A DNA stretch of 64,000 nucleotides from a virus. Position numbers and translations under genes: made by a program. Where the stretch lies: IMG/VR virus record IMGVR_UViG_3300031999_000009, positions 19,274-83,273 of that record. One strand, given 5' to 3'. Positions 32,914 to 63,698 of the stretch are shown here, one piece after another. How positions within the stretch are numbered: position 1 is the stretch's first letter; each line of letters begins with the position of its first letter. The notes under the pieces are model-generated. The model was not told the DNA's origin and searched no databases. It was given only the letters and a program-made list of their open reading frames with translations.

Positions 32914-33321
32914 ATGGCGAGTCTCAACAAGGTTCAATTGATTGGCAATCTCGGGCGCGACGCAGAGCTGAAGTATCTCGCGTCCGGGGCAGCGGTGGCG
33001 ACCATCAACATGGCGACCACGGAATACTGGAACGACAAGGCTGGCCAGAAGCAGGAGAAGACCGAGTGGCACCGGGTCGTCATTTGGGGCAAGACCGCGG
33101 AGGGCCTGGCCGAGTATCTCGTGAAGGGCAAGCAGATCTACGTCGAGGGCCGGCTGCAGACCCGGCAGTGGGACGACAAGGACGGCAACAAGCGCTACAC
33201 GACCGAGATCCGTGGCGATCGGGTCATCCTGCTCGGTGGTGGCAAGGGCGGCGCGGCGCACCCGGCGGCTTCCGGTGAGGAGCCAACCGGCCAGATGCCG
33301 GACGACGACATCCCGTTCTAG
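32914..33321 (+). CDS. ssb: Single-stranded DNA-binding protein
   Basis: [13 protein letters not shown]...TEWHRVV...[14 protein letters not shown]...DDIPF. Confidence 0.97.
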
Positions 33322-33325
33322 GTCG

Positions 33326-33341
33326 ATACCGCCGGCGGTAT
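33326..33341. repeat. Perfect 16-bp palindrome, copy 2
   Basis: ATACCGCCGGCGGTAT, intergenic after ssb. Confidence 0.9.
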
Positions 33342-33346
33342 GAACA

Positions 33347-33362
33347 CGTTCCACGTGGAACA
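33347..33362. promoter_or_regulatory. parS: parS-like site 2
   Basis: CGTTCCACGTGGAACA with perfect palindromic core GTTCCACGTGGAAC; 5 bp from palindrome copy 2. Confidence 0.7.
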
Positions 33363-33376
33363 CTCTGGGAGACGAC

Positions 33377-33697
33377 ATGCTGCACTACAAGCTCGACACT
33401 GACGGACAGCCTGTCGCCTGCGATCTCTTGGAGTGGGCCACGTGGTTCGAGGGCGCCGGCGCCTCACGTATCGTCGCCCAGGACATGGTCGGTGACGTGC
33501 AGGTGAGCACGGTCTTCCTCGCGCTGGACCACGACTGGTCTGGCGCGGGGCCTCCCGTGCTCTGGGAGACGATGATCTTCGGCGGACGACACTCGGACTA
33601 CCAGCGCCGCTACTCGTCGCGTGAGGCGGCCGTGGCGGGCCATGTTGAGGCGCTGGCGCTGGCGTCTGTGACACGGAACATCGAGTTGGAGGACTGA
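33377..33697 (+). CDS. Conserved phage hypothetical protein
   Basis: VSTVFLALDH...WETMIFGG...RYSS; ends RNIELED. Confidence 0.65.
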   Translation: MLHYKLDTDGQPVACDLLEWATWFEGAGASRIVAQDMVGDVQVSTVFLALDHDWSGAGPPVLWETMIFGGRHSDYQRRYSSREAAVAGHVEALALASVTRNIELED

Positions 33698-33978
33698 TGA
33701 AACGGATCACGGTGACGTGGCAGGAGACGACCACCTACGCGGTGTCGATTGTCGTGCCGGACGACTACCCGGAGACACTCGAAGAGTTCGCCTCGCCTGA
33801 GTGGAGCGCCTACCCACCGAGCGGTGATGGCGAGGAAGACTGGTGGGCCCGCGTCGAGGAGCAGTCACCTGATTGGATCCGGACTGGGTGCATTGAAGTG
33901 ACCGACCGCACGCTCACGGACCTTGAGCTCGACACGGGGCCGGAGTCCGACCACAACCCCGCCGAGCCTCCGCTCTGA
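33697..33978 (+). CDS. Acidic hypothetical protein
   Basis: TGATG-coupled; 93 aa, D/E-rich. Confidence 0.5.
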   Translation: MKRITVTWQETTTYAVSIVVPDDYPETLEEFASPEWSAYPPSGDGEEDWWARVEEQSPDWIRTGCIEVTDRTLTDLELDTGPESDHNPAEPPL

Positions 33979-33992
33979 TTCCGAGGTGACTC

Positions 33993-34163
33993 ATGACTGT
34001 TGTCGACAACGTCGTTGCAGCCTACAGACTCGCGCTGACCGTGGCCTCCTCGCGTGAGGACGTGACGAACATCATCGCCGAATTGACCCAGAGCATCCGC
34101 GCGCTCGACGTCGTGCGCCTCGAAGGGATCGAACAGCGTCGGAAGATGGGCACGCCCGCGTGA
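33993..34163 (+). CDS. Small hypothetical protein (below ORF-track cutoff)
   Basis: GAGG RBS; 56 aa, MTVVDNVVAAYRLAL... Confidence 0.45.
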   Translation: MTVVDNVVAAYRLALTVASSREDVTNIIAELTQSIRALDVVRLEGIEQRRKMGTPA

Positions 34164-34344
34164 AATTATTCGGAGCCGCCTTGGTTGCCGCCCCGTTGCT
34201 TCTTCTCACGGCCTAGTGCGCGAGTCGGGATGGCGCGTGGCGATGGCCACGTGGTTGATCGTGTCCGCCGTGGTCGCGTCGATCTCTGTCGGCGCCTGGC
34301 TCCTCGCGCACTGAAATTAGTTAAAGATTTCGGGCGTGAGGGTG

Positions 34345-34373
34345 TTGACTCCTGCCGCGATTGATAGTATCAT
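34345..34373 (+). promoter_or_regulatory. Early promoter P3
   Basis: TTGACT-N17-TATCAT. Confidence 0.85.
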
Positions 34374-34409
34374 TGTCTTATGTTGATGGAGACGATGATG
34401 GAGACAAAC

Positions 34410-35192
34410 ATGACCACTTGGGAATTCCCGAGCACCACGACAAGCGAGATTCACACCGTCACCCTGGTCGACCCGCGCACGAAGTTTCTGACGTGCACCT
34501 GCACTGGTTTCAAGTATCGCCGCGACTGCTGGCACACCAAGGCGGTCGCCGAAAAGATTTCCCCGGCGGTGGCACCGGCTGACAACAAATTTCTTCGAGC
34601 CGCGCTCGACTATCACAAGATGGGCTACCACGTGATTCCGGTCGAGCCGAACGGCAAGCGGCCACTCGTGCAGTGGAAAGATTTCATGACCGTCAAGCCG
34701 ACGCTGGGCCAGATCAAGACCTGGTGGATGCGCACCCCGAACGCCAACGTGGCGATTGTGCTCGGCCAGAACCGGTTTGCGGTGGACCTGGACGGCGGCG
34801 CCGAAGCCGAAAAATTATTGGCGGACGCGGGCATCGAGCTTCCCGCCGACGCGCCCCGCAGCAAGACAGGCGGCGGCAATCACGTGTTCCTGTCCGCGCC
34901 CACGCCGCAACCTGACCGAATCGGTCTGCTGAAGGCGGCCGAGCCGCTGGCCGGCGCACTGCCCACGCCGAAGGGCAAGCTGCGCCACGCGCAAATCGAC
35001 ATCCGCGGCCTCGGAATAATTATCGCGGCCCCGTCCGTGCACCCGAGCGGTGCCGTCTACACGTGGCTGTCGCCGCTGACGGCCACGCCGCCGATGGCGT
35101 CGGACGCGCTGCTGGAGCTCATCGCCTACGTGCCTCCGCCGCCACCGAAGAAGCCGCGGGCGCCGCGCAAGGCAAAGGTCGTGGTGTCATGA
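34410..35192 (+). CDS. SWIM finger fused to a bifunctional primase/polymerase (Prim-Pol, AEP) domain
   Basis: CTCTGF...CWH, then G..VIPV...KRP...W...PNANVAI...AVDLD...TGGGNH...DIRG...APSVHPSG..YTW. Confidence 0.85.
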   Translation: MTTWEFPSTTTSEIHTVTLVDPRTKFLTCTCTGFKYRRDCWHTKAVAEKISPAVAPADNKFLRAALDYHKMGYHVIPVEPNGKRPLVQWKDFMTVKPTLGQIKTWWMRTPNANVAIVLGQNRFAVDLDGGAEAEKLLADAGIELPADAPRSKTGGGNHVFLSAPTPQPDRIGLLKAAEPLAGALPTPKGKLRHAQIDIRGLGIIIAAPSVHPSGAVYTWLSPLTATPPMASDALLELIAYVPPPPPKKPRAPRKAKVVVS

Positions 35193-35262
35193 AGAAAATA
35201 ATTCTCCTGGCCACCTTCTGCTGGCTCGTGCTGCTGCTCGGTCAATACGCGGGGCAGCACGG

Positions 35263-35490
35263 ATGGTAGTCGCGACCTACCCGTCGTCGACTGAGCCTGG
35301 CGTCACACACACCGTCACGGTGAAGACGCGCCCCGGCACCAGGCAGGTGGCGTTGAAGTGCACGTGTAAAGGGTTCACGCGCGCGGCGCGCTGGCACTCC
35401 TGCTGGCATGTCCGCGAGGTGGCTCAACGAAATAATTATTTGACCGTGGTCGGCGGCGAGCTGTTCGGCTACACACCGGAGGCCAAATGA
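35263..35490 (+). CDS. Stand-alone SWIM zinc-finger protein
   Basis: CTCKGF...CWH. Confidence 0.65.
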   Translation: MVVATYPSSTEPGVTHTVTVKTRPGTRQVALKCTCKGFTRAARWHSCWHVREVAQRNNYLTVVGGELFGYTPEAK

Positions 35491-36635
35491 CCTGGGAGTT
35501 TGCGTCGAAGTCTAGCAGTGCTGTTCACACCGTGACGCTCCACCCCTCTGGCGAACTCGTGTGCACGTGCAGCGGCTGGCGTTTCAAGAAGCCTGGCAAG
35601 CCACGTGAGTGCACGCACATGACGGGGCTCATCAAAAAGAATTCGTGGTCACGGGACGTGAAGGGCGACCTCGTGATCATCAAAGAATCCGTCGAAAATA
35701 GTCCGAATTCGGTCGTGCCTCTCTTGACTCCGCCTGTCGATGATAGTATCATTGTTCTTGTAGGAGGGACACCAACAATGAACACAACGATGACCACCCC
35801 CACTCAGACGGCCCCGGACGCGCAGCTTGCGGTGGGCATGACCACCCCGGTGAGCGGTGCGGCGTTCAACGAAAAATATGGCGACGGCACCTGGTCGATG
35901 GACGAGAAGCTCGACGGCCACCGGTGCTTGGTCGTGAAGCGCGGCGAGGACATCAAGTGCTGGTCACGCGGCGGCGCCGGTCGTGCCAGCCTCGAAAAGA
36001 AAGTGACCCCAGCCATCCTGTCCGCCATCGCGCAGATGCCCGACGGCATCTACGACGGCGAGCTGATGATTCCCGGCGGCAACTCATGGAACGTGGTGGA
36101 CCTGGCCAGGCAGCACGAGCTGGTGGTCATCCTGTTCGACGTGCAGGAGATTCTGGGCCAGAACGTGTGCAAGGAACCACAGTCCATGCGGCGCGACCTG
36201 CTCGCGCAGGCGGTGGCGCACGTGAAGACGGACGCGGTGCGGTTGGTGGCCAGCTTCACGCCGGAGTGGGCGGTCATCGAAAAGATTTGGGCCGAGGGTG
36301 GCGAGGGCGTCATCGTCAAAAAGAATTCTGCCCCCTACCGCCCCGGCTACCGGTCGGATGCGTGGGTCAAGGTGAAGCAGCTGATGTCGGTGGTCGGCGT
36401 CATTACCGGGTTCAAGGCTGGCTCGTTCGGTCCCCACTCAGTAACCTGCGTGACCCTGGACAGCGGCGTCAAAACCCAGGTCAAGACACTGGACACCGTG
36501 ACGCTGGCGGCGATCGAAAAAAATCCCGAATCTTTCCTCGGCCACCGACTGGTGATTCAGTGCCAGCAGGTGGTGGCGTCGAGCGGCTGCCCGCGTCATC
36601 CGATGTGGGACCACATGGCGGGAGACACGGAATGA
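35487..36635 (+). CDS. ATP-dependent DNA ligase with N-terminal SWIM finger (alternative internal start at 35778)
   Basis: CTCSGW...CTH; ligase motifs EKLDG, YDGEL, LFDV, EGVIVK, WVKVK, PRHP. Confidence 0.9.
   Translation: MTWEFASKSSSAVHTVTLHPSGELVCTCSGWRFKKPGKPRECTHMTGLIKKNSWSRDVKGDLVIIKESVENSPNSVVPLLTPPVDDSIIVLVGGTPTMNTTMTTPTQTAPDAQLAVGMTTPVSGAAFNEKYGDGTWSMDEKLDGHRCLVVKRGEDIKCWSRGGAGRASLEKKVTPAILSAIAQMPDGIYDGELMIPGGNSWNVVDLARQHELVVILFDVQEILGQNVCKEPQSMRRDLLAQAVAHVKTDAVRLVASFTPEWAVIEKIWAEGGEGVIVKKNSAPYRPGYRSDAWVKVKQLMSVVGVITGFKAGSFGPHSVTCVTLDSGVKTQVKTLDTVTLAAIEKNPESFLGHRLVIQCQQVVASSGCPRHPMWDHMAGDTE
35724..35752 (+). promoter_or_regulatory. Early promoter P4 (inside the ligase ORF)
   Basis: TTGACT-N17-TATCAT followed by AGGAGG and in-frame ATG at 35778. 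Confidence 0.8.
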
Positions 36636-36949
36636 AAAATAAATTCCGCGCACTGCTCGCCCACTTGCGGCATCGCCTGTTTCACGGTGAGCACCATCAC
36701 CTGCAGGAGCACGGCGACCGCGAAATATTTCTTCGATGCTCACTGTGTGGGCTTCGATCGCCAGGCGTGCTCCTGGGGCCAGGGCCTCGTCCGGCGCTGG
36801 CTGGCGACCCCGTCCGTGCCAAGGCTCTTGTCGCCTCTGTCTCGCGCATCGTGCCACCGCTCGTGGCCGCGCCAGTGACAGCAGACGAGATTCGGTGGTT
36901 GGTCCACGAAGACGAAGACGACTTTCCTTCGATGCGACAGGTTCATTAG
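36632..36949 (+). CDS. Hypothetical protein (His-rich, CxxC)
   Basis: ATGA overlap with the ligase stop. Confidence 0.45.
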   Translation: MKNKFRALLAHLRHRLFHGEHHHLQEHGDREIFLRCSLCGLRSPGVLLGPGPRPALAGDPVRAKALVASVSRIVPPLVAAPVTADEIRWLVHEDEDDFPSMRQVH

Positions 36950-36958
36950 GAGACGACG

Positions 36959-37417
36959 ATGAAGGTATCAGAGGTCGGCTTGCTCGACGAATGCTTCACG
37001 CACATCGCGGAAGACGGAAAGCAGACCAGCTACGCGGTCACCAAGCTGGTTGAGTATCTGGCCGCCCACAATTGGGAGAAGGTGGTGGTGCCCGTCGAGG
37101 AGTTCCACGCGGCCTACTGTGTCAACAACCGCGGTGTCGAGCCTGACCGCATCGCTCGCCTGCTTCAGTGCGTGCCGGCGTTGGTGCGGCCGATCGTGTT
37201 CATCCACATGCCGGACAACTCGCACCTGTTGGTGGATGGCACGCACCGCTACGTGGCGCTCTTCGGGCTGAATCGAACGGAAATCTTCGCGCACATGGTG
37301 CCGTGGGACATCGCTAAGGACTTCATCCTCGAGGACATTCCCAACACGACACCCGAGCGGTTGATGCAGCACTCGCACCTCTCGCAACTTCGCGAGCTTC
37401 TCGGGATCGATCGGTAG
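36959..37417 (+). CDS. ParB/Srx-like N-terminal domain protein
   Basis: PIVF...LLVDGTHRY motif. Confidence 0.6.
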   Translation: MKVSEVGLLDECFTHIAEDGKQTSYAVTKLVEYLAAHNWEKVVVPVEEFHAAYCVNNRGVEPDRIARLLQCVPALVRPIVFIHMPDNSHLLVDGTHRYVALFGLNRTEIFAHMVPWDIAKDFILEDIPNTTPERLMQHSHLSQLRELLGIDR

Positions 37418-37568
37418 ATGCCCACGCTGGTCATCACGATGGCAAATGGGTCCGTCCAGCGGCACAAGGGATGGACGCTGGAAATGGCCGAGCGGCTCAA
37501 GGCATCCTGGGCGCAGATCACCCCTCCACCGGTCTTCACGATCGCGTGGGAGGACATAGGAGACGACG

Positions 37569-37874
37569 ATGGCGGTTACAAAAGCGGCAAAGCTCGACGA
37601 CCTCAATCTCGGTGATTTCGTCTATGACATGCACGACGGTTTGCGCCCGTTGCGCGAGCGCTTCGGCATCATCTCCATGGTGCAGTGGCACCACTCCAGC
37701 GAAAACGTCCAGCCGTTCGTCGGGCCCAAAGGGTGGAAGTTTCCGAACAAGGAGCTGCGCGTGATCGGCTTCACGGATGAAGGCCACGCCGTGTGTGGCT
37801 TCACCTACGACGGTATCCGCAGCGGCATTCTGGTGCTGTCGGACTTGGTCACTGGCCCAGACCCGAGGGATTGA
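37569..37874 (+). CDS. Hypothetical protein
   Basis: AGGAG RBS; 101 aa. Confidence 0.5.
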   Translation: MAVTKAAKLDDLNLGDFVYDMHDGLRPLRERFGIISMVQWHHSSENVQPFVGPKGWKFPNKELRVIGFTDEGHAVCGFTYDGIRSGILVLSDLVTGPDPRD

Positions 37875-37986
37875 GCATGTCAAGGTTCGTGGGAGTTGTG
37901 ATCGGTGCGTGTTTCGTCGTGGGCTGCCTCGCGCTGGCGATCGCCTTCGCCGCGTGGTCCGTCCATCTGGCGTGGAGCCAATTTCA

Positions 37987-38292
37987 ATGACCTTCCAGGT
38001 CTGGCATCGTCGCCTTCCCACGTTCATGGAGAGCCGGCCGGAGGAACTTGTCGCCTTCCCGCAAGGGTGGCAGCACGTTGCTGACGTGGACGTGGACGCA
38101 TTGAACCAGGTCTTCGAGCGGACCAATAGCATCGACGCGCTGTGGACCGACAACCTGGAAGTGACGCTCCGCGTGGCTCCACCGCTTCGGTCGACGTCAG
38201 TCGGGGACGTGATCGTCGCGCCCAATGCGGTCGGCCTGAACGGACAGCCTGCCAGGCTTGAAATCGCGATGCTCGGTTACAAGGAGTTCTGA
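37987..38292 (+). CDS. YodL-like hypothetical protein
   Basis: VFERTN...RSTSVGDVIV motif. Confidence 0.5.
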   Translation: MTFQVWHRRLPTFMESRPEELVAFPQGWQHVADVDVDALNQVFERTNSIDALWTDNLEVTLRVAPPLRSTSVGDVIVAPNAVGLNGQPARLEIAMLGYKEF

Positions 38293-38293
38293 G

Positions 38294-39211
38294 ATGGTCA
38301 AGAACAGGAAGCGGGCCTACGCCGGCGTGCTGGACATTCCCGAGGGCGAGCAGAACGGCATCCGGATTCGCCACAAGCATCAACCGCCTGGCACTACGCT
38401 CCAGTCAGGCAACTTCCGCACGGCGTTGTTCGGCCAGAAATCGGAGAGCGTCACGTTCAAGGCCGCGACTATCTGGCACGAGCTGTCCGAGAAGGGCCAG
38501 GGCGTGTGGATGACGGACCTCCCGATCGAGCAGCGCCAGATGGACGAGCTCATCACCAAGGCCCGCGGACGGGTGCTGGTGGGCGGGCTTGGGCTGGGTT
38601 ACGCGGTGGTGGCGTTGTCGGCGATGCGCTCTGTTGAGGAAATCGTCGTGGTCGAGCGCAACCCTGACATCGTGGCGCTCGTGTGGGCGGCGACGGTCGC
38701 CAAGTGCCGCAAGGGCGTCCCCGTTTCCGTGGTGACCGAAGACTTGTTCGACTACTTGCTGTGGGCGACAGCCAAGCAGGAGAGGTTCGATTGGGGCCTC
38801 TTCGACATCTGGCAGGGCGACGGTGAAACGACCTTTCACCAGACCGTCGTGCCGCTGCGCGCCGCCGCCGCGCGTGTCGTTCGCGAGCTGGAGTGCTGGA
38901 ACGAAGACGTCATGCGCGGCCAGCTGATGATGGGCCTCCGGACGCGCCTGATGTTCCTGGGCGCAGCGGAAACGGCGAGTGTCGTGGGGTCTGATCTGAC
39001 GAAGGGCATGCCGACCCTCGAGTTCCTGTGCGAGCCGCACCAATCCATCTACACCGACTGGTCGGTGGCGTTCTGGCGCTGGTATCGCGAAAACGCTGGT
39101 GCCGCCAACATCGACGTGATGCTGGCACTTTACGCGTCCAGCTACGGTCGCCCAGAACGGGCAGCAACGCTAGCGCGATTCGAGGCACGCCATGAGCTTC
39201 AAGCTCGGTGA
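38294..39211 (+). CDS. Class I SAM-dependent methyltransferase (spermidine-synthase-like)
   Basis: WMTD.P.E...GRVLVGGLGLGY...VVERNPDIV...FD...DIW. Confidence 0.75.
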   Translation: MVKNRKRAYAGVLDIPEGEQNGIRIRHKHQPPGTTLQSGNFRTALFGQKSESVTFKAATIWHELSEKGQGVWMTDLPIEQRQMDELITKARGRVLVGGLGLGYAVVALSAMRSVEEIVVVERNPDIVALVWAATVAKCRKGVPVSVVTEDLFDYLLWATAKQERFDWGLFDIWQGDGETTFHQTVVPLRAAAARVVRELECWNEDVMRGQLMMGLRTRLMFLGAAETASVVGSDLTKGMPTLEFLCEPHQSIYTDWSVAFWRWYRENAGAANIDVMLALYASSYGRPERAATLARFEARHELQAR

Positions 39212-39677
39212 GTTGCTCGGATCGGAAGAGATTCACGTGCGCCTGGAGTGTGCGACTGGGAAGGCTCCCTTCGATAGTCGACAGGACGCCAACCGCGCCC
39301 TCAAGCGATTGCCTCGGTCTGGGCCCACGCGGATGACGGTGTTCCGATGCGGCTATTGCGAGAAGTATCACCTCGGCCACCGTCGAGGAGCAGTTCTGTG
39401 AGTAAACGATGCCCACGATGCGAGTCGCCGGACCCGGCACGGCATCCCGCCATGCAGTTCGAGGGGGAAGTGCAAATCTGTGAGCACCCTTGGCACGGCA
39501 TACCAATCGACACGAGCACGAAGCGATTGGGAGCCCAGGCCAGAGCGGCCGAGGAGGGGAAGTGAGGGGACCAACTCCTCGGCGTCTTGGGCGCCACAAT
39601 CCCCGGCGCACGATACTGTTGCGACATCGACTCACGACATCCCTGTGGGGTCTTGGCCGCGAGCGAGGAGGAGAACG

Positions 39678-40112
39678 ATGAGTGCCAAGAGAAAGGTTCA
39701 GATTCCGTCCATTGGCGACCTGTTGGTGCTCGCCGCACCGTGGCAATTCCACGTGGTGAATGAGCATCGGAACGCCACGCTTGTCGCTCACATGGGGAAA
39801 ACAGTGCCAGGCCGGTCCTATTACCCGCTGGGCGTCACCCAAGCCGCGTCATGGCACCCGTTGCCTTCGACGCTCTGGTGCACGATCCCCTCCGGCGCCG
39901 TGCTCCGCGTCTCGCGTATCTACATCCGCGCTGGTGCGGCCGCCTACGACTCAGTGACGTTCTGGTGGAAGCCATCGCCGAAGGCGAAATCGGTTCGATT
40001 CTTCGCTCGACTGCCAGATGTGAACAAGATGTCGGTGCGCTCTGATGCCTGGACCGCCCGAGACGAGGCCGACCCGGTCCTTGGTGCCCGAGCGATCGAA
40101 TTGGAGGAGTGA
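39678..40112 (+). CDS. Conserved phage hypothetical protein
   Basis: GAGGAG RBS; IP.IGD...EHRN...RIYIR...YDSVTF...RFFA; ends RAIELEE. Confidence 0.6.
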   Translation: MSAKRKVQIPSIGDLLVLAAPWQFHVVNEHRNATLVAHMGKTVPGRSYYPLGVTQAASWHPLPSTLWCTIPSGAVLRVSRIYIRAGAAAYDSVTFWWKPSPKAKSVRFFARLPDVNKMSVRSDAWTARDEADPVLGARAIELEE

Positions 40113-40481
40113 TGACATGCGTGAACTGCGGTAAGAATGAGGCGCCGCTGGTGATTTGCGACCAGTGCCGCCAGTCCTATCCCGGCGACCCGCAGGTGCT
40201 CGAAATGATGGTGCACGCGTTCCAGCTGTATCGCGTGCCTGTCCTTGAGGCGTCCCCGGCTCCGTCGTGGCCGAAGAAGGTCGATCCGCAATGAGCTTCA
40301 TTCGCGTGCTCTGGGCACAGCGCGGCGGCCACATCCATTGTCGCGTGTTCGTTTCGAAGACGGAGGACGGCCCAGGCCATGCGTCCGGCAATCTCGTGTT
40401 CGACGTAGACGAGTGGCCCTGGGTGGCCCGCCGACTTGCGTATGTGGCTGGGATGGTTGTCGTTCACGAAGGAGACAACAC

Positions 40482-41714
40482 GTGAGCTTCGTCCTGCGCG
40501 ACTACCAAGAAAACGCCGTATCGCGAGGCGTGCAATTCTTGAAGTCTGGCACTGGCGGCGGCTTGGTCGTGCTGCCGACCGGTGCTGGCAAGTCGTTGGT
40601 CATCGCCGGCATCGCCAGTCGCCTGGATGGTCCGTGCCTGATTTTCCAGCCGTCGCGCGAAATCCTCCAGCAGAACGCAACGAAGTTGCTGGCGTATGGC
40701 TACGAGCCGTCCGTCTACTCCGCGTCGATGGGCGTGAAGGAGGTTGGCCACATTACGCTGGCGACCATCGGAAGCGTGAAGGCGCGACCGGACTTGTTCG
40801 ACGCCTTCCCCTACATCATGGTGGATGAGGCCCACCTGGTGAATGCCAAGTCCGGCATGTATCAGGAGTTCATCGAGTCCATGGGCGACGTGCGCGTCCT
40901 GGGGTTGACGGCAACGCCGTTCCGACTGTCGACCGATGGCTACGGTGGTTCGCAGTTGAAGTTTCTGACACGCACCAGGCCGCGCTTCTTTCACACGGTC
41001 GTGGCCTATGCCCAAATCCCAGACCTGATCCAGCGCGGCTATCTGTTCAAGCCGGAATACCAGGCCGTGACTGGCTTCACGGCCTCGGCTTTGAAGCTGA
41101 ACACGACAGGCGCGGACTACACGGACGATTCCGTGAAGCGCCATTTCAACCAGATCGGCTTCGCTGACCGCCTGCGCCGCATCGTCCTGCGTCTCTTGGA
41201 AGTGGGGCGCCGGAATGTGCTGGTCTTCACGCGGTTCGTAGATGAGGCCGAAGCGCTGGCGCGCACCGTGCCTGGCACGGCCGTCGTGACGGCAGCTACG
41301 AAGTCGCACGAGCGCGAGCAAATCATCGCAGACTTCAGGTCTGGCGTGATCAAGGTGGTGGCGAACGTCGGCGTGCTGGGCTTGGGCTTCGACTTCCCTG
41401 AGCTGGAGACGGTGGTGCTGGCCAGGCCGACCGTTTCGCTGGCGCTCTACTATCAGCAGGTCGGGCGCCTGCTGCGACCACACCCCGCGAAGACGTCCGC
41501 GTGGGTGGTGGACATGGTTGATCAGGTCCGTCAGTTTGGGCCGATCGAAAACTTGTGGCTTCAACCAGGCGGACCCAGTGGGATGCTCTGGGAGATGGTG
41601 ACGCGCACGGATGGCGTGACGAAGCCGTTGACGAACACGTATTTCGGTGGCGATCCGACGGGACGACGAAAGAAGTGGGATCGCAAGCGGAAGTGGGGAA
41701 CCAATGGACGTTGA
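40482..41714 (+). CDS. SF2 DEAH helicase (RadD/YejH-like)
   Basis: LRDYQ, LPTGAGKS, DEAH, GLTATP, GFDFP, ARPT, QQVGR. Confidence 0.93.
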   Translation: MSFVLRDYQENAVSRGVQFLKSGTGGGLVVLPTGAGKSLVIAGIASRLDGPCLIFQPSREILQQNATKLLAYGYEPSVYSASMGVKEVGHITLATIGSVKARPDLFDAFPYIMVDEAHLVNAKSGMYQEFIESMGDVRVLGLTATPFRLSTDGYGGSQLKFLTRTRPRFFHTVVAYAQIPDLIQRGYLFKPEYQAVTGFTASALKLNTTGADYTDDSVKRHFNQIGFADRLRRIVLRLLEVGRRNVLVFTRFVDEAEALARTVPGTAVVTAATKSHEREQIIADFRSGVIKVVANVGVLGLGFDFPELETVVLARPTVSLALYYQQVGRLLRPHPAKTSAWVVDMVDQVRQFGPIENLWLQPGGPSGMLWEMVTRTDGVTKPLTNTYFGGDPTGRRKKWDRKRKWGTNGR

Positions 41715-41940
41715 GCAGGCAGATTCGTCGCATGAGAAATGGGCAGACACAGCCGAATTGGTGGCCGAGAACCCGGCCGCGGCCACCGCGAAGTCGTTGC
41801 GGTTGGCGTTGGCGTATCTGTCGTATCGGCGGGCGGCGCTCATCTTGAACGCGCGCCGCAAGAAGCGAGAGCCCTCCGAAAAGAAGTTGGCAGCGATCGA
41901 CGCGCGGTTGCAGCACTACGCCGAATTGCTTCAGAAATAG
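41704..41940 (+). CDS. Hypothetical protein
   Basis: 78 aa overlapping the helicase stop. Confidence 0.45.
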   Translation: MDVEQADSSHEKWADTAELVAENPAAATAKSLRLALAYLSYRRAALILNARRKKREPSEKKLAAIDARLQHYAELLQK

Positions 41941-41964
41941 TCAAAGAATTCGGAGACGAAGGTG

Positions 41965-41993
41965 TTGACTCCTGCGCCCTTTGATAGTATCAT
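41965..41993 (+). promoter_or_regulatory. Early promoter P5
   Basis: TTGACT-N17-TATCAT. Confidence 0.85.
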
Positions 41994-41999
41994 TATTCT

Positions 42000-42410
42000 T
42001 GTAAGGAGGGGTGGGCGGCCGGAGGGGCTGTCACCGCGCCGGGTCAGAAGAGGGCCCGAACGCTCACCCACTTTGACAACTGAATCAGTCCAACGTGACC
42101 GGGCCCGAGTGGGTCGGGTTGCAGGAGACGGCCGACATATCCGGTAGGGACGCCAGCGCCGGACACACTAAGGCCGGGAGACATCTCCCCTGTAGGAACG
42201 CTGAAGTTACGTTGGACTGATTGGGTTGTCGGGGACACACGCCGGCGCGCGCAAGGGCAAGCGATTCCGCACGGACAAGCACTTCCGGGCGTTGCCCGAT
42301 ACGAAGGCGCCCTGTATCGGGAAAGGCGACGGCGGCCTTGACGACCCGCACTCTGCGTCGGATGTTAGGTTCAAGTAATTGGACCCATGCACGAAAGGTC
42401 CGACGCGCAC
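42000..42410 (+). ncRNA. Candidate structured ncRNA or long leader
   Basis: No convincing CDS after P5; 14-bp perfect long-range helix 42083-96/42209-22 extended by G-U pairs, plus several further stems. Confidence 0.6.
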
Positions 42411-42420
42411 TTTGGAGGCG

Positions 42421-42798
42421 ATGATGACGACTCAGTTCACGCTCATTCAGTTCACGCTCCTCACCAAGCAACGCCGCCGTATCGTCCGCCAGGAACCGTG
42501 CTGGCTGGCGACGGCGTCGTTCGCTGACGGGCCAGGGATGAAGGTCAAGAAGATGACCACCACGCGAGATATCCAGAAGGCGGCTCGCTTCAGTCTCGTG
42601 ACTGCGCACAACATCGCGGTCCAGTTCTCACACCTGCCGGCATCGCTGGTTCGACCGGACGGGTCGGTCCTCGAGGCCGAGTCGTCTGCGGTGCAGGCGG
42701 AACAGCGTCGGCGACACGACGAGCACCACCGCCTGAAGCGGGACATGAACCGAGACTTGAACGCCCTGTTCGAGTCGGCTGCGGAGATGCTGCGATGA
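42421..42798 (+). CDS. Hypothetical protein
   Basis: GGAGG RBS at the end of the structured leader. Confidence 0.55.
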   Translation: MMTTQFTLIQFTLLTKQRRRIVRQEPCWLATASFADGPGMKVKKMTTTRDIQKAARFSLVTAHNIAVQFSHLPASLVRPDGSVLEAESSAVQAEQRRRHDEHHRLKRDMNRDLNALFESAAEMLR

Positions 42799-42943
42799 GC
42801 AAGACCAGCGACTGGGCCATCCGCGTGCTGAACGAGGAGCCGCCCTTGAACAAATACGAGCGCGTGGTGCGCTACGACGCGTCGATGCTCAGGATGCAAC
42901 GCATCTGGGCCTACCTTCTGAAAAGAAAGATGAGGCTCTACCG

Positions 42944-43270
42944 ATGAAGCGCACACGCGCCAGTCTGCAGTTGGCCGAACTTCGGAAGCTGCGTGAGATT
43001 GCCCACGAGTGCCTCGAAGGTCGCGCCTGCCCATTCTGCGGCGAGCCGCTGCTGACGACCACCAACATCTACGCACCTGGTGACGGGATGGCGTCCCCCA
43101 TCAATGCGGACCTCACACTGCATCACCGCGACGGCAACCACGCGAACAACGCGAAGACGAACCGCGTGTGGGCACACCGGCGTTGCCACAAGTCGTTCCA
43201 CATGACCGAGCGCCATTTGGCCCGAAAGAAAGCATCGAATTTAGGCAAAGAATTAGCCCACACAGCTTGA
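42944..43270 (+). CDS. HNH endonuclease
   Basis: CPFC...LHHRDGNHANN..TN...HRRCH...H. Confidence 0.8.
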   Translation: MKRTRASLQLAELRKLREIAHECLEGRACPFCGEPLLTTTNIYAPGDGMASPINADLTLHHRDGNHANNAKTNRVWAHRRCHKSFHMTERHLARKKASNLGKELAHTA

Positions 43271-43295
43271 CTCGCTGCCGGATTGATAGTATCAT
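43267..43295 (+). promoter_or_regulatory. Early promoter P6 (upstream of Ku)
   Basis: TTGACT-N17-TATCAT. Confidence 0.85.
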
Positions 43296-43357
43296 CGTTT
43301 GGTAAGGTGATGACGACCACTTCGGCAACCACGGTGACTACGAAGGAGACGACGACA

Positions 43358-44158
43358 ATGGCCATGCGCTCAATCCTCAACTTGAACATCAGCCTCGGAA
43401 TGTTCGGCTTCCCGGTCAAGGTTTACAAGGCAGTGAACGACCCCGCGGAGGGCATCTCGTTCCGCCAGGTGCACGCAGCGTGCGGCACCCCGATCAACCA
43501 GGTGAAGCGCTGCTCCTGCTGCAACGTCGACGTGACGCAGGCGGAGCTGGTCAAGGGCTACGAGCAGCCCGGTGGCCCGATGCTGATCTTCCAAGAGGAC
43601 GAGATCAAGGCCCTCAAGCCCGAGGCGATGGGCACGGTCAAGGTCGACGGCTACCTCGCCGCTGACGAAATCGACCCCTGTTACCAGGACGGCCCCATCT
43701 ACTACTTGTCACCTGACCGCGGCACCAACAAGAAGGGCGACTGCGACACGTTCACCACCTGGCGCGACGCGCTGGCTGGCCGGTGGGCCATCGGCAAGGT
43801 CGTCATGTATGGCCGCGAGCACGTGGTGGCGATTCGCAGCGTCGACCGCCTCTTGGCGATGCACTTCATTCGGACCCACTCGGAGATTCGCAACGTGTTC
43901 GACGTGCCGGCCTACGACACGGTGCCGGAGACGAGCAAGAGCGAATACGCCGAGCTGATGGGCCAGCTCATTCGCAAGTCCACCATCGCGTTCGACGACG
44001 TGGTGCTGGAGTCTGACGCCTACACGGACTCGGTGAAGGCGCTGATCGAGTCGCGCAAGGCAGGCCAGCCCGCTCCGGCGCAGGCTGAGTTCAAGCCCGC
44101 GTCCACCGGTGGCGACCTGCTCGCGATGCTGAAGGCGTCATTGGCGGCTCAGGCGTGA
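43358..44158 (+). CDS. ku: Ku protein (DNA end binding)
   Basis: ISLG...PVKVYKA...ISFRQVH..CG..I....C..C....LVKGYE...IDP.Y...YYL.P...DLLAMLKASL. Confidence 0.9.
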   Translation: MAMRSILNLNISLGMFGFPVKVYKAVNDPAEGISFRQVHAACGTPINQVKRCSCCNVDVTQAELVKGYEQPGGPMLIFQEDEIKALKPEAMGTVKVDGYLAADEIDPCYQDGPIYYLSPDRGTNKKGDCDTFTTWRDALAGRWAIGKVVMYGREHVVAIRSVDRLLAMHFIRTHSEIRNVFDVPAYDTVPETSKSEYAELMGQLIRKSTIAFDDVVLESDAYTDSVKALIESRKAGQPAPAQAEFKPASTGGDLLAMLKASLAAQA

Positions 44159-44224
44159 TCAAGATGGTAAACCCGCAACTGGGAGCAGGTGCGCCCTGTT
44201 CCCCTCTCTCTCTGGAGGAGGACC

Positions 44225-44695
44225 ATGTCAGAACCGATCGGGATTGCACCGAAACGAAAGTTCACTGTCAACCAGTTCGATCTCGCGAATGCAATTCCTA
44301 ACTGCCCGGCGCACTGCGCCATTGCGCTCGCTATTGAGCGGACCTATGGCGCAACGAATGTGAGGGTCGGTAGCACCAGGGACGGCCGGATCGCTTTCAC
44401 CATCGGAAACAAGCGTTACGTTTACCCGGGCATTCCCCGTGCGGCGATCGAGTGTCAGTATCTCGTTGACGCCGGACAGGCCAACCGCGTAGCTCCATTT
44501 ACCGTGAATCTTGAGCACGGCTTCGTTCACAAAGTTGGGCAAAGCCCCTCCAGCAACCCAAAGCGGAAGCGCCGTGGTCACTGGCAGCGGAAGGCGTCGC
44601 GGAGCCCGCGTGGCGTGCCCTACTCTCGGACGCTAAGGCGCGAGCTCGAACAGCGACAACTCGAGGCTCTTTCCACTGGGACACACGTCAGATGA
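44225..44695 (+). CDS. Hypothetical protein
   Basis: GGAGGAGG RBS; basic C-terminus. Confidence 0.5.
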   Translation: MSEPIGIAPKRKFTVNQFDLANAIPNCPAHCAIALAIERTYGATNVRVGSTRDGRIAFTIGNKRYVYPGIPRAAIECQYLVDAGQANRVAPFTVNLEHGFVHKVGQSPSSNPKRKRRGHWQRKASRSPRGVPYSRTLRRELEQRQLEALSTGTHVR

Positions 44696-44985
44696 TCATC
44701 AAAATCATTCCGTCCGACGGGAAGCCCCCGACCAAGGTGGCCGACGCCGAGCTGCACTTCCGTGTCGAGGATGGCGTGCTGTCCGGCCTGAAGCTGATTG
44801 GATTCGGGGTCTGGCGCCGCGGCAACGGCGAGCACACCGTCACCTTTCCCGCGCGGCAGTATTCCGTCAACGGGGAGCGCCGGAGCTTCGCGCTCCTGCG
44901 TCCGATCGAGCATGTCGGCGCACAGAACACCATCCGCGACGCCATCCTCATGGCCTACGCAGAATCCGAAGGGAGCGTGAAATGA
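44692..44985 (+). CDS. SpoVG-like nucleic-acid-binding protein
   Basis: A.A.LHF...GLKL.GF.VW....VTFPAR....IRDAIL.AY pattern. Confidence 0.5.
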   Translation: MIIKIIPSDGKPPTKVADAELHFRVEDGVLSGLKLIGFGVWRRGNGEHTVTFPARQYSVNGERRSFALLRPIEHVGAQNTIRDAILMAYAESEGSVK

Positions 44986-46109
44986 GTCACTTTTCCGTGT
45001 TGGTCATCGGCGAGGACCACGAGGCGCAGCTCGCGCCGTTCCACGAGTTCGAGTGCACGGGACGCGTCGACGAATACGTGCAGACCGTGGACAAGACCGA
45101 GGAAGCGCGAGCGACCTACGTCAAGGACACCACGCGCATGCTGAAACTCGTGGACGGCACGCTCGTGAGTCCCTACGTCGGAGGGAACTACAACCCAGGC
45201 TACCTGCGTCCGCCGACCATCGAGGAGCGCGAGGCCATCCAGAAGGCTGGCCCTCTTGGACTCGGCGGCAAGCCTCCGTTCGAAACGGTGGGCTACGGCG
45301 ACAGCGTGCGCGTCGTGCAGTTCCCGGCCGGCGCCGAAGACATCCAGGTGCCGACCGTGGATCACGAGTCGTTCGCCGAGTGGGCAGCGGGCTACTACGG
45401 GGCGCCCATCGCGCACGGCATGTCGGAGGTTGACCTCGATGACACGCACAAATACGGCTACACGCTCGTCGAGGTCGACTCGGTGCCCTCGGTGCAGGTG
45501 TTCGACCGGACCAACCCGAACCGGAAGTGGGATTGGTATTCGGTCGGCGGTCGCTGGACGGGCTACTTCAAGGTCAAGGCGGGCGCGGACGCCGCCGTTG
45601 GTGATCCCGGCATCCTGACGGAGCCGGCTGAGAAAGGGTGGGCCGACGTCTGCCTCAAGGGCGACATCGACATCGTCGGAATGCGCGCCGAAGCCATGGC
45701 CACCGCCGCCGAGAACTTCGACCGCATCCACGCCATCCTTGACGACCGACCGCTGATCGAGCCGTGGGACCACGTGCGCGTGCGCTTCACCGAGCAGGGT
45801 ATCGACGCGGCTCGCAAGTTCTACAACGCCCAGGAGGGGCTCGTGGCCTTGCGTGAGGCCAAGGAGAGTGTTTGGAACATCGAGCCCTTCCTTGTGCAGC
45901 GGGACGAGTTCATCGAGACGGCGCGGCAGAACGCGCTCGTGCCGTTCGCGCTCGTGATGGACGGCCAGTGGTTCGAGTCCGGCTCGATGGGGTGGTGGGG
46001 CATGGTGTCTGACGAGAAGAACCAGGCCGAGTGGATGGCGATGGTGAACCAGCTCCTCGACGGCTTGCCGGACGGCACGCTGATCACAGCCGTGGACTGT
46101 CACATATGA
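44982..46109 (+). CDS. Conserved phage hypothetical protein
   Basis: MSHFSVLVIG...NPN.KWDWY.VGGRW...G.MGWWG...VDCHI. Confidence 0.7.
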   Translation: MSHFSVLVIGEDHEAQLAPFHEFECTGRVDEYVQTVDKTEEARATYVKDTTRMLKLVDGTLVSPYVGGNYNPGYLRPPTIEEREAIQKAGPLGLGGKPPFETVGYGDSVRVVQFPAGAEDIQVPTVDHESFAEWAAGYYGAPIAHGMSEVDLDDTHKYGYTLVEVDSVPSVQVFDRTNPNRKWDWYSVGGRWTGYFKVKAGADAAVGDPGILTEPAEKGWADVCLKGDIDIVGMRAEAMATAAENFDRIHAILDDRPLIEPWDHVRVRFTEQGIDAARKFYNAQEGLVALREAKESVWNIEPFLVQRDEFIETARQNALVPFALVMDGQWFESGSMGWWGMVSDEKNQAEWMAMVNQLLDGLPDGTLITAVDCHI

Positions 46110-46672
46110 GCGGCGGGGCACGCGGGCATTCGGTGGGCGGCGCCGTGCGAGGGTATCGAATCTTCGAGTGGTCCGGGCCCGATGTGGATAACGGCAGTCG
46201 GAAGCCGTTTTCCACGGCCGCGGAGGGCTCCTTCGACAAGGAGTGGCACGCGACACTCGCTGACGCGCAGGCGTGGATCGCCGCCGCGCCAACGCTGACG
46301 AAGTTGCGAGTGGAGTTCACCGCCTACGTCGTCGCTGGCAGCGCGACAGAAGACGAGCTGGAAGAGTGGGTGCGGTTCAACCTTCACGCCACGGGGTCGC
46401 TCACGAAGAGCCCCGTTTCTGAGAAGGAGCTCGAGGCGGTCGACGTCTCCGTCGACATCGAGGACTGTCGATGATGAAGTTTCGCGTCGTGGCGCATCGC
46501 ACGGCCGTCTACGAAGTCGAGGCCGAAACGAGCGAAGAGGCCATCGACCTCATGATCGGCGGCGCAGGTGACGAAGTGGATGGGTCCACCGAGGACATCA
46601 AAGCGATACCGATCTGCGGCAACTGCGACGCTGACCTCGTAGACGGTCGGTGTCCACAGTGTGGAGACAAGG

Positions 46673-47152
46673 ATGGCTGATTTCACGGGCACGCTCCTCT
46701 CGACCGGCTTCCGCGCGAAGGACAACTCGGCCTTCTTGACCGACCCGGAGGCGCAGCGCGCCATGGACCACATCGTGAAGGGCGAGGGCGGGTTCTTCGA
46801 CTGCCACGATGGGTGGTGGGCGTTCGGGTGGTATGGCCAGTATCCGGGGTCCGTCCTGCAGTTGACCTGCCAAACCTGCGACGGCGAAGGCGCCACGTGC
46901 TCAGAGTGTGACGGCGAGGGAAACGTCGAGGTTGACCTGACCGACATCGTGCAGCGCCACATCCACGATGACGACATTTGCGCGATCGCCGTCAGCGGCA
47001 ACGAGAAGCTCCGCTACAACGGTGGCACCACGGCCTACGTGTCGACCAAGGGCACCGTCTACGTCGATGGTGGCGCCGAGTGGGGCACGCACCTCACCCG
47101 CGCGGATCTCAAGGGGATCGCGGAGAAGATGAAGAAGCTGGAGGACTTGTGA
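46673..47152 (+). CDS. Hypothetical protein with a DnaJ-type CxxCxGxG zinc finger insert
   Basis: CQTCDGEG..CSECDGEG. Confidence 0.55.
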   Translation: MADFTGTLLSTGFRAKDNSAFLTDPEAQRAMDHIVKGEGGFFDCHDGWWAFGWYGQYPGSVLQLTCQTCDGEGATCSECDGEGNVEVDLTDIVQRHIHDDDICAIAVSGNEKLRYNGGTTAYVSTKGTVYVDGGAEWGTHLTRADLKGIAEKMKKLEDL

Positions 47153-63669: not shown

Positions 63670-63698
63670 TTGACTTCTGCGCCCTTTGATATTATCAT
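63670..63698 (+). promoter_or_regulatory. Early promoter P8
   Basis: TTGACT-N17-TATCAT (TGATATTATCA variant). Confidence 0.85.

What the first reader, a model, noticed from the sequence alone, without database searches (positions are those of the whole stretch)
42000..42410. Promoter-driven ~410-nt structured RNA with a boxA-like motif
Seen: directly after P5, GGGTGGGCG (42009-17) pairs with CGCTCACCC (42061-69). A long helix GACAAC..AATCAGTCCAACGTGAC (42075-99) / GTTACGTTGGACTGATT..GTTGTC (42206-30) encloses a ~105-nt branched domain. Further stems are CCCGATAC/GTATCGGG (42295-42321) and GCGTCGGA/TCCGACGC (42355-42406), the latter containing a GGTTCAA-GTAA-TTGGACC GNRA hairpin. Several mismatches are G-U compatible on the + strand, which favours RNA-level selection. 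CTTTGACAACTGAAT (42071-85) resembles rRNA-operon boxA antitermination sequences. Inference: an unannotated phage ncRNA (decoy/sponge, 6S-like, or RNase III-processed) or an antitermination leader.
Basis: partly seen in the sequence, partly recalled or inferred. Interest (0 to 1): 0.72.

Follow-up and report, generated by a model that had tools for sequence, protein, structure and literature searches.

The report
Phage early leader with one long RNA helix
Behind one of eight near-identical early promoters, this uncultured sediment phage has an unusually long untranslated leader whose only feature beyond chance is one 29-base-pair long-range helix next to an imperfect copy of the bacterial boxA signal, so it looks like an ordinary processed phage leader and not a large new RNA.

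Summary
The "410-nt highly structured RNA" does not hold up as described.

- **Fold:** the whole stretch folds better than shuffles (z -5.1). The excess comes almost entirely from one long-range helix, 42071-42099 paired with 42206-42234 (z -6.65, + strand only). This is the best inverted repeat in the window.
- **Other stems:** the first hairpin domain, the 106-nt interior and the whole 3' half fold no better than shuffles.
- **3' half:** it carries a weak coding-like signal in the frame of the downstream gene. It has no proper start codon and no homologue.
- **Rfam and ORFs:** Rfam gives nothing, and no leader ORF is a conserved protein.
- **boxA-like motif:** the 15-mer is letter-for-letter a widespread bacterial motif that often sits just upstream of 16S or 23S rRNA genes. 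The phage copy lacks the G-Y-U prefix, including the G that E. coli/lambda work calls critical.
- **Context:** the leader lies in a 1.6-kb accessory block that the closest relatives lack.

Best reading: a cis-acting 5' leader of lambda/T7 type with a probable RNase III-type helix. Interest is modest.

The parts
41704..43266 (+). Accessory block between the helicase and Ku genes. It holds a 78-aa ORF, promoter P5, the long leader, a 125-aa ORF, a 50-aa ORF and a 108-aa ORF. The closest relatives lack it.
   Evidence: In L007 and L008 (helicase 73-74% identical) the helicase match ends at window 41603 and the Ku match resumes at 43344. Only about 228 nt lie between them in L007. A DNA search with 41700-43300 in G001 (100% complete), G002 and G003 gave only matches of 27 nt or less, E >= 0.038.
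41965..41993 (+). Early promoter P5 (TTGACT, 17 nt, TATCAT). Transcription probably starts near 42000.
   Evidence: 8 matches to TTGAC-N18-TANNAT, all on the + strand, against 0.06 expected. Consensus scan. The copy at 63670 is 93% identical to it over 42 nt. The start point is inferred from spacing and was not measured.
42009..42069 (+). First hairpin domain. The outer stem pairs GGGUGGGCG with CGCUCACCC, and there is an inner GGGCCC-type hairpin. It starts exactly where similarity to the other promoter copies ends.
   Evidence: Pair probability of the outer stem is 0.80. The domain alone is no more stable than shuffles: z -1.02, 33 of 200. Promoter-copy contexts.
42071..42085 (+). boxA-like 15-mer CTTTGACAACTGAAT. 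The prefix is CCA where boxA has G-Y-T. A CGCTC lies 6 nt further upstream.
   Evidence: The exact 15-mer occurs in more than 120 stretches of prokaryote genomes. Of the 80 fetched, 52 carry the prefix GTT, GCT or GAT, and 12 of those lie 48-252 nt upstream of a 16S or 23S gene (Rfam confirmed 5 of 18 loci). The phage prefix CCA occurs in none of the 80 genome hits or 82 viral hits.
42071..42099 (+). 5' strand of the long helix (11 bp, one G-G mismatch at 42082, then 17 bp).
   Evidence: The 17-bp part has mean pair probability 0.92. The outer 11 bp drop to 0.07 when the 3' flank up to 42440 is included.
42100..42205 (+). The 106-nt interior enclosed by the long helix. It is predicted to be branched but is not more stable than chance.
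   Evidence: z -0.97, 34 of 200 shuffles as good. No Rfam match and no tRNA. No coding-like frame.
42206..42234 (+). 3' strand of the long helix.
   Evidence: Five G-U pairs are possible only on the + strand: two inside the 25-nt arms and three in the CUUU/GGGG extension, read directly from the sequence.
42205..42378 (+). Stretch with coding-like codon usage in the frame of the 125-aa gene. It is closed by TAA at 42376-42378, which sits in the GUAA loop. It has no ATG or GTG start.
   Evidence: 0.25-0.32 bits per codon, as in real genes. Simulated sequences reach this in 1.1% of 1000 trials. No homologue by word search. In the exhaustive search, none of 35 hits aligns with identities in residues 1-57.
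42289..42327 (+). Hairpin with the CCCGAUAC/GUAUCGGG stem.
   Evidence: Pair probability 0.99. z -2.44, 2 of 200 shuffles as good.
42348..42418 (+). Terminal hairpin (GCGUCGGA/UCCGACGC with the GGUUCAA-GUAA-UUGGACC tip). Its base is predicted to pair 42348-42354 with the Shine-Dalgarno GGAGG at 42414-42418.
   Evidence: Stem probability 1.00. The Shine-Dalgarno bases pair with 42348-42354 at 0.66-0.89. z -2.50, 4 of 200 shuffles as good.
42421..42798 (+). Conserved 125-aa gene of unknown function, the first gene served by the leader.
   Evidence: 10 homologues at 48-67% identity begin at the same N-terminus. 35 clusters found in the exhaustive search. No match in Pfam, PHROGs, PADLOC or NCBIfam.

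Best explanation
The stretch is the long (about 420 nt) 5' untranslated leader of a small accessory early operon, made by host RNA polymerase from promoter P5. Its one selected structural feature is a 29-bp long-range RNA helix (42071-99 paired with 42206-34) that closes off a 106-nt loop domain.

I infer that this helix acts in cis as a double-strand-specific processing or stability element, that is, an RNase III-type site. This would resemble the leader between pL/nutL and gene N in lambda, or the R0.3 site behind the T7 early promoters.

The 5' strand of the helix begins with a degenerate boxA-like sequence. It may still load the host's Nus factors onto the polymerase while the untranslated leader is being made. 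Its missing G-Y-U prefix makes that step doubtful.

At the 3' end, a hairpin whose base pairs with the ribosome-binding site probably limits translation of the 125-aa gene.

**Shown:** the promoter family, the absence of conserved ORFs, the + strand-specific helix and the motif identity.

**Inferred:** transcription of the leader, cleavage, Nus loading and translational control.
For: - **Promoter:** 8 copies against 0.06 expected.
- **Leader length:** the other seven leaders are about 15-92 nt. Only P5 has about 412-420 nt.
- **Helix stability:** the helix domain gives z -6.65 as RNA on the + strand. The 236-nt 5' part gives z -6.23 on + and -2.82 on -. It ranks first of 1081 windows on + and is ordinary on -.
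- **Strand:** five G-U pairs are possible only on the + strand.
- **No protein:** no Pfam or PHROG match for 8 leader ORFs. No homologue for the one coding-like frame.
- **Downstream gene start:** homologues begin at the same Met, so the leader is not a lost exon.
- **Motif:** the 15-mer is identical to a widespread rRNA-operon boxA plus its flank.
- **Precedent:** T7 has a boxA anti-termination element downstream of its early promoters (passage in PMC3709561).
- **Ribosome-binding site:** predicted paired at 0.66-0.89.
Against: - No homologous leader DNA could be obtained, so there is no covariation evidence.
- No RNA data exist. All listed sequencing runs are DNA and carry the identical sequence.
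- Apart from the helix, the leader folds no better than shuffles.
- The outer 11 bp of the helix are unstable in a longer context, with pair probability 0.07.
- The boxA-like motif has C where G2 should be and A where U4 should be. Transversions at position 2 are reported as not tolerated in lambda (PMC3177189).
- The 9-mer core is not enriched in the window: 6 matches at up to 1 mismatch against 8.3 expected.
- No + strand terminator that would need antitermination was found in 33000-47000.
- The block is an orphan insert, so the long spacer could simply be a recombination scar.
Confidence: 0.45

Rival explanations
1. Neutral spacer. The 1.6-kb block was spliced in behind a copy of the P8-type promoter. 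The 420 nt are leftover foreign or decayed sequence, partly a dead reading frame. The inverted repeat would be tolerated and not selected.
For: - The block is absent from G001, G002 and G003.
- P5 is 93% identical to the promoter at 63670 over 42 nt, and the similarity ends at about 42007.
- The 3' half has a coding-like frame without a start codon and with an in-frame TAA.
- Most of the leader folds like shuffled sequence.
Against: - A 25-nt, 88% complementary repeat, extended by G-U pairs on the transcribed strand only, is the best in 64 kb. It gives z -6.65.
- The identical sequence is held in four other sediment runs. These may be one campaign and show no variation either way.
Confidence: 0.2
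2. A DNA-level element: paired 25-bp sites for a DNA-binding or recombination protein, a single-strand initiation hairpin in the replication module, or a relic of a miniature inverted-repeat element.
For: - The repeat is strong at the DNA level, 22 of 25 Watson-Crick pairs.
- As single-stranded DNA the + strand still gives z -3.59, and the - strand -2.30.
- It lies among replication and repair genes: helicase, Ku and ligase.
Against: - RNA parameters on the + strand give the strongest signal.
- I saw no target-site duplication at the arm ends when reading the flanks.
- It is single-copy in the 83-kb record, and no true match to an arm was found in IMG/VR.
- No iterons: direct repeats are 14 nt or shorter, in two copies each.
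- The region is not AT-rich, at GC 0.64.
Confidence: 0.13
3. A free-standing non-coding RNA. The stem-bounded 164-nt domain is cut out or terminated and then acts in trans, for example as a decoy for Nus factors or another host protein.
For: - Strong promoter, with the helix directly after a boxA-like word.
- The layout of hairpin, boxA-like word and long stalk around an insert copies the order seen in rRNA operon leaders. In L067 the motif lies 131 nt upstream of the 16S gene.
- Earlier notes of this scan describe large structured RNAs behind boxA in phiEco32-like phages (unchecked by me).
Against: - The 106-nt interior is not more structured than chance.
- No Rfam match.
- No terminator-like site on the + strand.
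- The boxA prefix is missing.
- Most of the boxA-like word is sequestered in the helix: mean unpaired probability of CUUUGACAA is 0.19.
Confidence: 0.12
4. The 3' half encodes a short upstream peptide (TTG 42226 to TAA 42376). Its translation would melt the terminal hairpin and free the ribosome-binding site of the 125-aa gene, giving translational coupling.
For: - Codon usage of 0.25 bits per codon in that frame, with both other frames looking like off-frames. p is about 0.01 against simulations.
- The stop codon lies in the loop of the hairpin whose base pairs with the Shine-Dalgarno sequence.
Against: - No ATG or GTG, and no Shine-Dalgarno sequence before TTG 42226, which lies inside the 3' strand of the long helix.
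- No homologue anywhere.
- The window's own 125-aa product is on record (P0001), yet the search with this frame found no candidate at all, not even the window's own. It therefore seems no gene was called here.
Confidence: 0.1

Closest known systems
Phage T7 early control region (host promoters A1-A3, boxA, RNase III site R0.3, gene 0.3)
   Same: Host-type early promoter, then a boxA-type word, then a long double-stranded RNA element, then the first early gene. A boxA anti-termination element downstream of the T7 early promoters is stated in PMC3709561 (passage read).
   Different: No sequence similarity. The word here lacks the G-Y-U prefix. The helix spans 106 nt and is not a local hairpin. 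Only one of eight promoters has it. The T7 R0.3 details are recalled and come from no call.
Lambda pL-nutL-N leader (boxA, boxB, RNase III-sensitive structure ahead of N)
   Same: A leader of a few hundred nt behind an early promoter, with a boxA-type element followed by a large helix and an occluded ribosome-binding site.
   Different: I recognised no boxB hairpin. No family match of any kind was found in the four cassette proteins, so no N-like protein is evident. The lambda boxA keeps G2, C5 and U6 (PMC3177189), while this one has C at position 2. The lambda leader anatomy is recalled.
Bacterial rRNA operon leader and spacer (hairpin, boxA, processing stalk around the rRNA)
   Same: The identical 15-mer occurs 48-252 nt upstream of 16S or 23S genes in 12 loci, 7 of them Acidobacteriota by record title. 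The order of hairpin, boxA word and long-range stalk is the same.
   Different: The stalk encloses 106 nt with no rRNA similarity. The G-Y-T prefix, present in 12 of 12 rRNA-adjacent hits, is absent here. There is no extended similarity to any of the 80 loci.
BoxA elements in mRNA leaders (suhB and others; Baniulyte et al. 2017, PMC5725501)
   Same: A boxA-type word in the 5' untranslated region of a protein-coding operon. 27 of 39 assessable prefix-bearing genome hits here are also not next to rRNA.
   Different: The published consensus GYTCTTTAANA is not met at its G and T. The suhB boxA lies 6 nt from the ribosome-binding site, whereas this one lies about 340 nt from it.

Membership tests
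boxA (NusB-NusE binding site) | Sequence consensus GYTCTTTAANA (gamma-proteobacteria), with G2, C5 and U6 making specific NusB contacts. Transversions at positions 2, 5 and 6 are not tolerated in lambda. | tested here: not met
   The phage reads CCACTTTGACA. C5, U6, U7 and U8 and the 3' part match. Position 2 is C and position 4 is A. The consensus comes from PMC5725501 and the critical bases from PMC3177189. All 12 rRNA-adjacent genome hits have G-N-T.
boxA (NusB-NusE binding site) | Lies in nascent RNA shortly after a promoter and ahead of untranslated or structured RNA. | tested here: met
   The motif starts about 71 nt after the inferred start site of P5 and precedes about 340 nt without a gene.
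boxA (NusB-NusE binding site) | Binds NusB-NusE and renders the polymerase termination-resistant. | not testable with these tools
   Needs a binding assay or a reporter. The host is unknown.
RNase III processing site | About two turns (20 bp or more) of mostly regular double-stranded RNA. | tested here: met
   11 bp plus 17 bp stacked across one G-G mismatch. The 17-bp part has pair probability 0.92. The size criterion is from general knowledge.
RNase III processing site | Cleavage by RNase III in vivo or in vitro. | not testable with these tools
   No RNA run holds the sequence.
Any Rfam family (riboswitches, 6S, ribozymes, introns, GOLLD/ROOL/HEARO, T-box and others) | Covariance-model score at or near the family threshold. 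| tested here: not met
   There were four matches in two searches. The lowest E-value was 1.6 and the highest score was 19.7 bits, and every score was far under its family's threshold of 32-70 bits. All four were eukaryotic or archaeal snoRNA or miRNA models.
Miniature inverted-repeat or insertion element | Terminal inverted repeats, flanking target duplication and multiple copies. | tested here: not met
   Inverted repeats are present. I saw no duplication at the flanks. It is single-copy in the record. The arm 17-mer gave only chance hits in IMG/VR.
Conserved small protein | An ORF in the stretch with homologues or a family match. | tested here: not met
   8 ORFs gave no Pfam match. PHROGs gave only one weak match, E = 0.1, for the ORF at 42095-42220. 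The frame-1 peptide has no homologue. All 35 exhaustive hits fall on the 125-aa part.

The most novel reading that the evidence does not exclude
The element is a miniature copy of a ribosomal RNA operon front end: promoter, hairpin, boxA-derived word and a long processing stalk. It encloses a 106-nt cargo in place of the rRNA. The phage would use it to borrow the host's rRNA transcription and processing machinery and release a stable small RNA, or to soak up Nus factors early in infection.
Probability: 0.1. Interest if true: 0.65.

Novelty: new member of a known kind. Interest (0 to 1): 0.3.

Why it matters
If the helix and the boxA-like word are functional, this would be an example from an uncultured high-GC sediment phage of the promoter, boxA and double-strand processing site layout so far worked out in coliphages. 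It would also show that accessory gene cassettes can bring their own leader logic with them. As it stands, this is an orphan sequence with one strong helix. Its main value is as a corrected annotation: about 230 nt of leader that matter, not 410. It also points to a small conserved gene family (35 clusters at 50% identity, counting this phage's own protein if it is on record) whose upstream regions could settle the question.

Tried and rejected
**Searches for a homologous leader: nothing usable**
- blastn of 41900-42500 against phage records gave no match.
- The 17-mer of the helix arm in IMG/VR gave 2 loci that match only the 17-mer, so they are chance hits.
- The 125-aa protein or its alignment A1 found no relative in IMG/VR, in phage records or in genome contigs.
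- The metagenome scan gave one locus, L036. I rejected it: the match is out of frame inside what reads as an ATPase gene with a Walker A motif, 19 aligned columns.
- A1 was not found in 5 genomes, nor in 401 and 401 genomes sampled from the phyla of two genomes that hold the 15-mer. Those two are labelled Acidobacteriota and Acidimicrobiia.
- The 78-aa ORF found no relative in IMG/VR.

**Sequencing runs**
- No RNA holder was listed.
- Contigs of four other sediment runs cover parts of the leader with no differing letters, so they give no variation to test.

**Other negative results**
- The Ku leaders of relatives (about 150 nt, conserved between G001 and G002) are not related to this leader: local alignment score 22 against a null of 19 +/- 2.7.
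- There is no extended similarity between the leader and the 80 genome loci that hold the 15-mer.
- The Atlas gave no informative neighbour for the 125-aa protein. All scores were 0.80 or lower, and TM by the query's length was under 0.5.
- PADLOC and NCBIfam gave nothing for the four cassette proteins.
- My first rRNA check with primer-like motifs found only 7 of 80 loci. I replaced it with blastn using the rRNA genes of L067.
- Downstream genes of 10 boxA-bearing loci not next to rRNA showed no common theme.

**Limits**
- Supplementary Table 2 of PMC5725501, which gives the boxA positions, could not be seen because supplements are closed.
- Savalia et al. 2010 was not read. PMC2941873 is not held.

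Full report
**Where it lies.** The window is bases 19274-83273 of an 83,273-base IMG/VR virus record, about 68% complete. The same sequence is held in sediment metagenome runs. GC is about 62%, and all long ORFs read on the + strand. The finding lies in the early and replication region, between a superfamily-2 helicase (40245-41714; ResIII and Helicase_C domains) and a Ku gene (Pfam Ku, 1.4e-26).

The non-coding gap runs from the stop of a 78-aa ORF at 41940 to the ATG of a 125-aa ORF at 42421. That start is secure: ten homologues at 48-67% identity begin at the same N-terminus.

**The promoter is real.** TTGAC-N18-TANNAT occurs 8 times in the window, all on the + strand, against 0.06 expected. 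The copies share an extended TGATAGTATCAT and an upstream AAAGAATT word. Relatives G001 and G002 have the same promoter architecture.

The other seven promoters are followed by a Shine-Dalgarno sequence and a start codon after about 15-92 nt. Only P5 has a leader of about 412-420 nt. P5 is 93% identical over 42 nt to the promoter at 63670. That similarity ends at about 42007, two bases before the first stem.

**What is structured.**
The opposite strand gives z -2.33.
- Splitting the stretch shows where the signal sits. Region 42000-42235 gives z -6.23 on + and -2.82 on -. Region 42236-42420 gives z -0.79 on + and +0.19 on -.
- Splitting further, the long-helix domain 42071-42234 alone gives z -6.65.
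- The first hairpin domain gives z -1.02 and the enclosed 106 nt give z -0.97, so both are ordinary. The two 3' hairpins are modest at z -2.4 and -2.5.
- Against the phage's own sequence, which is a fairer null than shuffles, the 5' 236 nt is the most stable GC-adjusted window of 1081 on the + strand (z -3.76). On the - strand 248 of 1081 windows are as stable. The 411-nt window ranks 5th of 425.
- The repeat 42075-99/42206-30 is the best of 20 inverted repeats in the window.
- Of its three non-Watson-Crick positions, two are G-U on the + strand. The four-pair extension CUUU/GGGG adds three more G-U pairs. These would be A-C mismatches on the other strand.
- As single-stranded DNA the asymmetry is weaker: z -3.59 against -2.30.
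- In a longer context the inner 17 bp stay paired (probability 0.92), but the outer 11 bp do not (0.07).

The evidence therefore supports one + strand RNA helix. It does not support a 410-nt architecture.

**Is it coding?**
- No leader ORF matches Pfam. One ORF (42095-42220) has a single weak PHROG match at E = 0.1 (8 ORFs tested).
- A codon-usage score trained on 19 long genes shows nothing coding-like in 41990-42200.
- Region 42208-42378 does score like a gene (0.25-0.32 bits per codon) in the frame of the 125-aa gene, with both other frames looking like off-frames. Simulated leaders reach this in 1.1% of 1000 trials, or 0.6% if the frame must also be open.
- That frame has no ATG or GTG. 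Its first TTG (42226) lies in the helix's 3' strand, and it ends at a TAA in the GUAA loop.
- The peptide has no homologue by word search.
- An exhaustive HMMER search with the frame read through the TAA as X gave 35 hits. Their best-scoring stretches lie on the 125-aa part in 34. The stretch for P0028 begins at residue 47, but its BLAST alignment shares only two residues before residue 58, where the TAA was read as X.
- N-terminally extended relatives such as P0014 show no similarity to the peptide.
- I leave this as an unexplained weak signal: a dead frame, a short upstream peptide, or chance.

**The boxA-like word.**
- The 9-mer core is exact once in the window. At one mismatch it is not enriched: 6 matches against 8.3 expected.
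- The 15-mer CTTTGACAACTGAAT is a different matter.
- Of the 80 loci fetched, 52 have GTT, GCT or GAT just before it, against about 4 expected by chance.
- Of those 52, 12 lie 48-252 nt upstream of a 16S or 23S gene, 13 have too little downstream sequence to judge, and 27 have 700 nt or more downstream without rRNA.
- None of the 28 loci with another prefix is next to rRNA. Rfam confirmed rRNA next to 5 of 18 loci tested.
- The 15-mer is therefore the 3' two-thirds of a widespread boxA plus its flank.
- In viral contigs, 29 of 82 occurrences also carry the canonical prefix.
- The phage copy is preceded by CCA, a prefix seen in none of those 162 occurrences.
- The published consensus is GYTCTTTAANA (PMC5725501, passages).
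- The NusB-NusE-BoxA structure paper names G2, C5 and U6 as making specific contacts, and says transversions at positions 2, 5 and 6 are not tolerated in lambda (PMC3177189, abstract and passages). The phage has C at position 2 and A at position 4.
- A CGCTC lies six bases further upstream, inside the first stem's 3' strand. The motif reads like a boxA split by six bases. I cannot tell whether that is descent or coincidence.
- I put a working NusB-NusE site at about one in four.

**Context.** The closest relatives in IMG/VR (L007 in the complete 122-kb G001, and L008; helicase 73-74% identical) pass from the helicase through one promoter straight to Ku. The whole 41704-43266 block has no counterpart in G001, G002 or G003.

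The block's four small proteins have no Pfam, PADLOC or NCBIfam match. The 108-aa ORF matches part of a PHROG annotated as HNH endonuclease (9.4e-08). The leader thus belongs to an accessory cassette that carries a copy of a resident promoter.

**How it most likely works.** Host polymerase starts near 42000. The first hairpin and the boxA-like word emerge first. About 130 nt later the 3' strand completes a 29-bp duplex, long enough for a double-strand-specific nuclease.

The last hairpin's base pairs with the ribosome-binding site at probability 0.66-0.89, so translation of the 125-aa gene is probably held down until the leader is remodelled or cut.

This is the logic of the lambda N leader and the T7 early leader. 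T7's boxA downstream of its early promoters is in print (PMC3709561, passage). The rest of those two anatomies I recall from memory. Every step after "the helix is there on the + strand" is inference.

**Comparison and novelty.** No Rfam family fits and there is no tRNA. The element works like a known kind, a processed and possibly antiterminated phage early leader, without being a sequence member of any family.

Earlier notes of this scan describe large structured RNAs behind canonical boxA copies in phiEco32-like coliphages. I did not check them. The present case is smaller, has a defective boxA and has no conservation data.

**Verdict.** This is a new member of a known kind, with interest about 0.3. 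The decisive test is covariation in the upstream regions of the 125-aa gene's homologues.

Noticed in passing
window 29005, 30554, 34345, 35724, 41965, 43267, 48686, 63670: Eight near-identical early promoters (TTGACT-N17-TATCAT). Each has a palindromic TGATA-G-TATCA over the -10 box and an AAAGAATT word about 12 nt upstream of the -35 box. Relatives G001 and G002 use the same layout with different spacer sequence.
   Followed up: partly
L039:135-290 (G001) and L044 reverse strand (G002): The Ku genes of the two closest relatives have a conserved leader of about 150 nt with several GC-rich hairpins. In this phage the Ku leader is only about 56 nt and is unrelated to it.
   Followed up: partly
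L076, L083, L095, L104 (Acidobacteriota by record title): In four loci where the canonical boxA 15-mer is not next to rRNA, an ORF of exactly 91 aa starts 26-366 nt downstream. It has no Pfam match. It may be a conserved boxA-led small gene.
   Followed up: partly
window 35724-35778: One promoter copy lies inside the long ORF 35487-36635 (ligase-like by PHROG). An ATG with a Shine-Dalgarno sequence follows 19 nt after the inferred start, so the real ligase gene may begin at 35778 (285 aa).
   Followed up: no
window 42342-42355 and 42401-42414: There is a 14-nt direct repeat, CGACCCGCACTCTG and CGACGCGCACTTTG. The first copy ends at the first base of the terminal hairpin stem and the second copy overlaps its last six bases. 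The first copy supplies the bases predicted to pair with the ribosome-binding site.
   Followed up: partly
Genome-contig hits L053-L125: 7 of the 12 rRNA-adjacent occurrences of the exact 15-mer are in Acidobacteriota by record title. This is a weak hint to the host phylum of this sediment phage.
   Followed up: no
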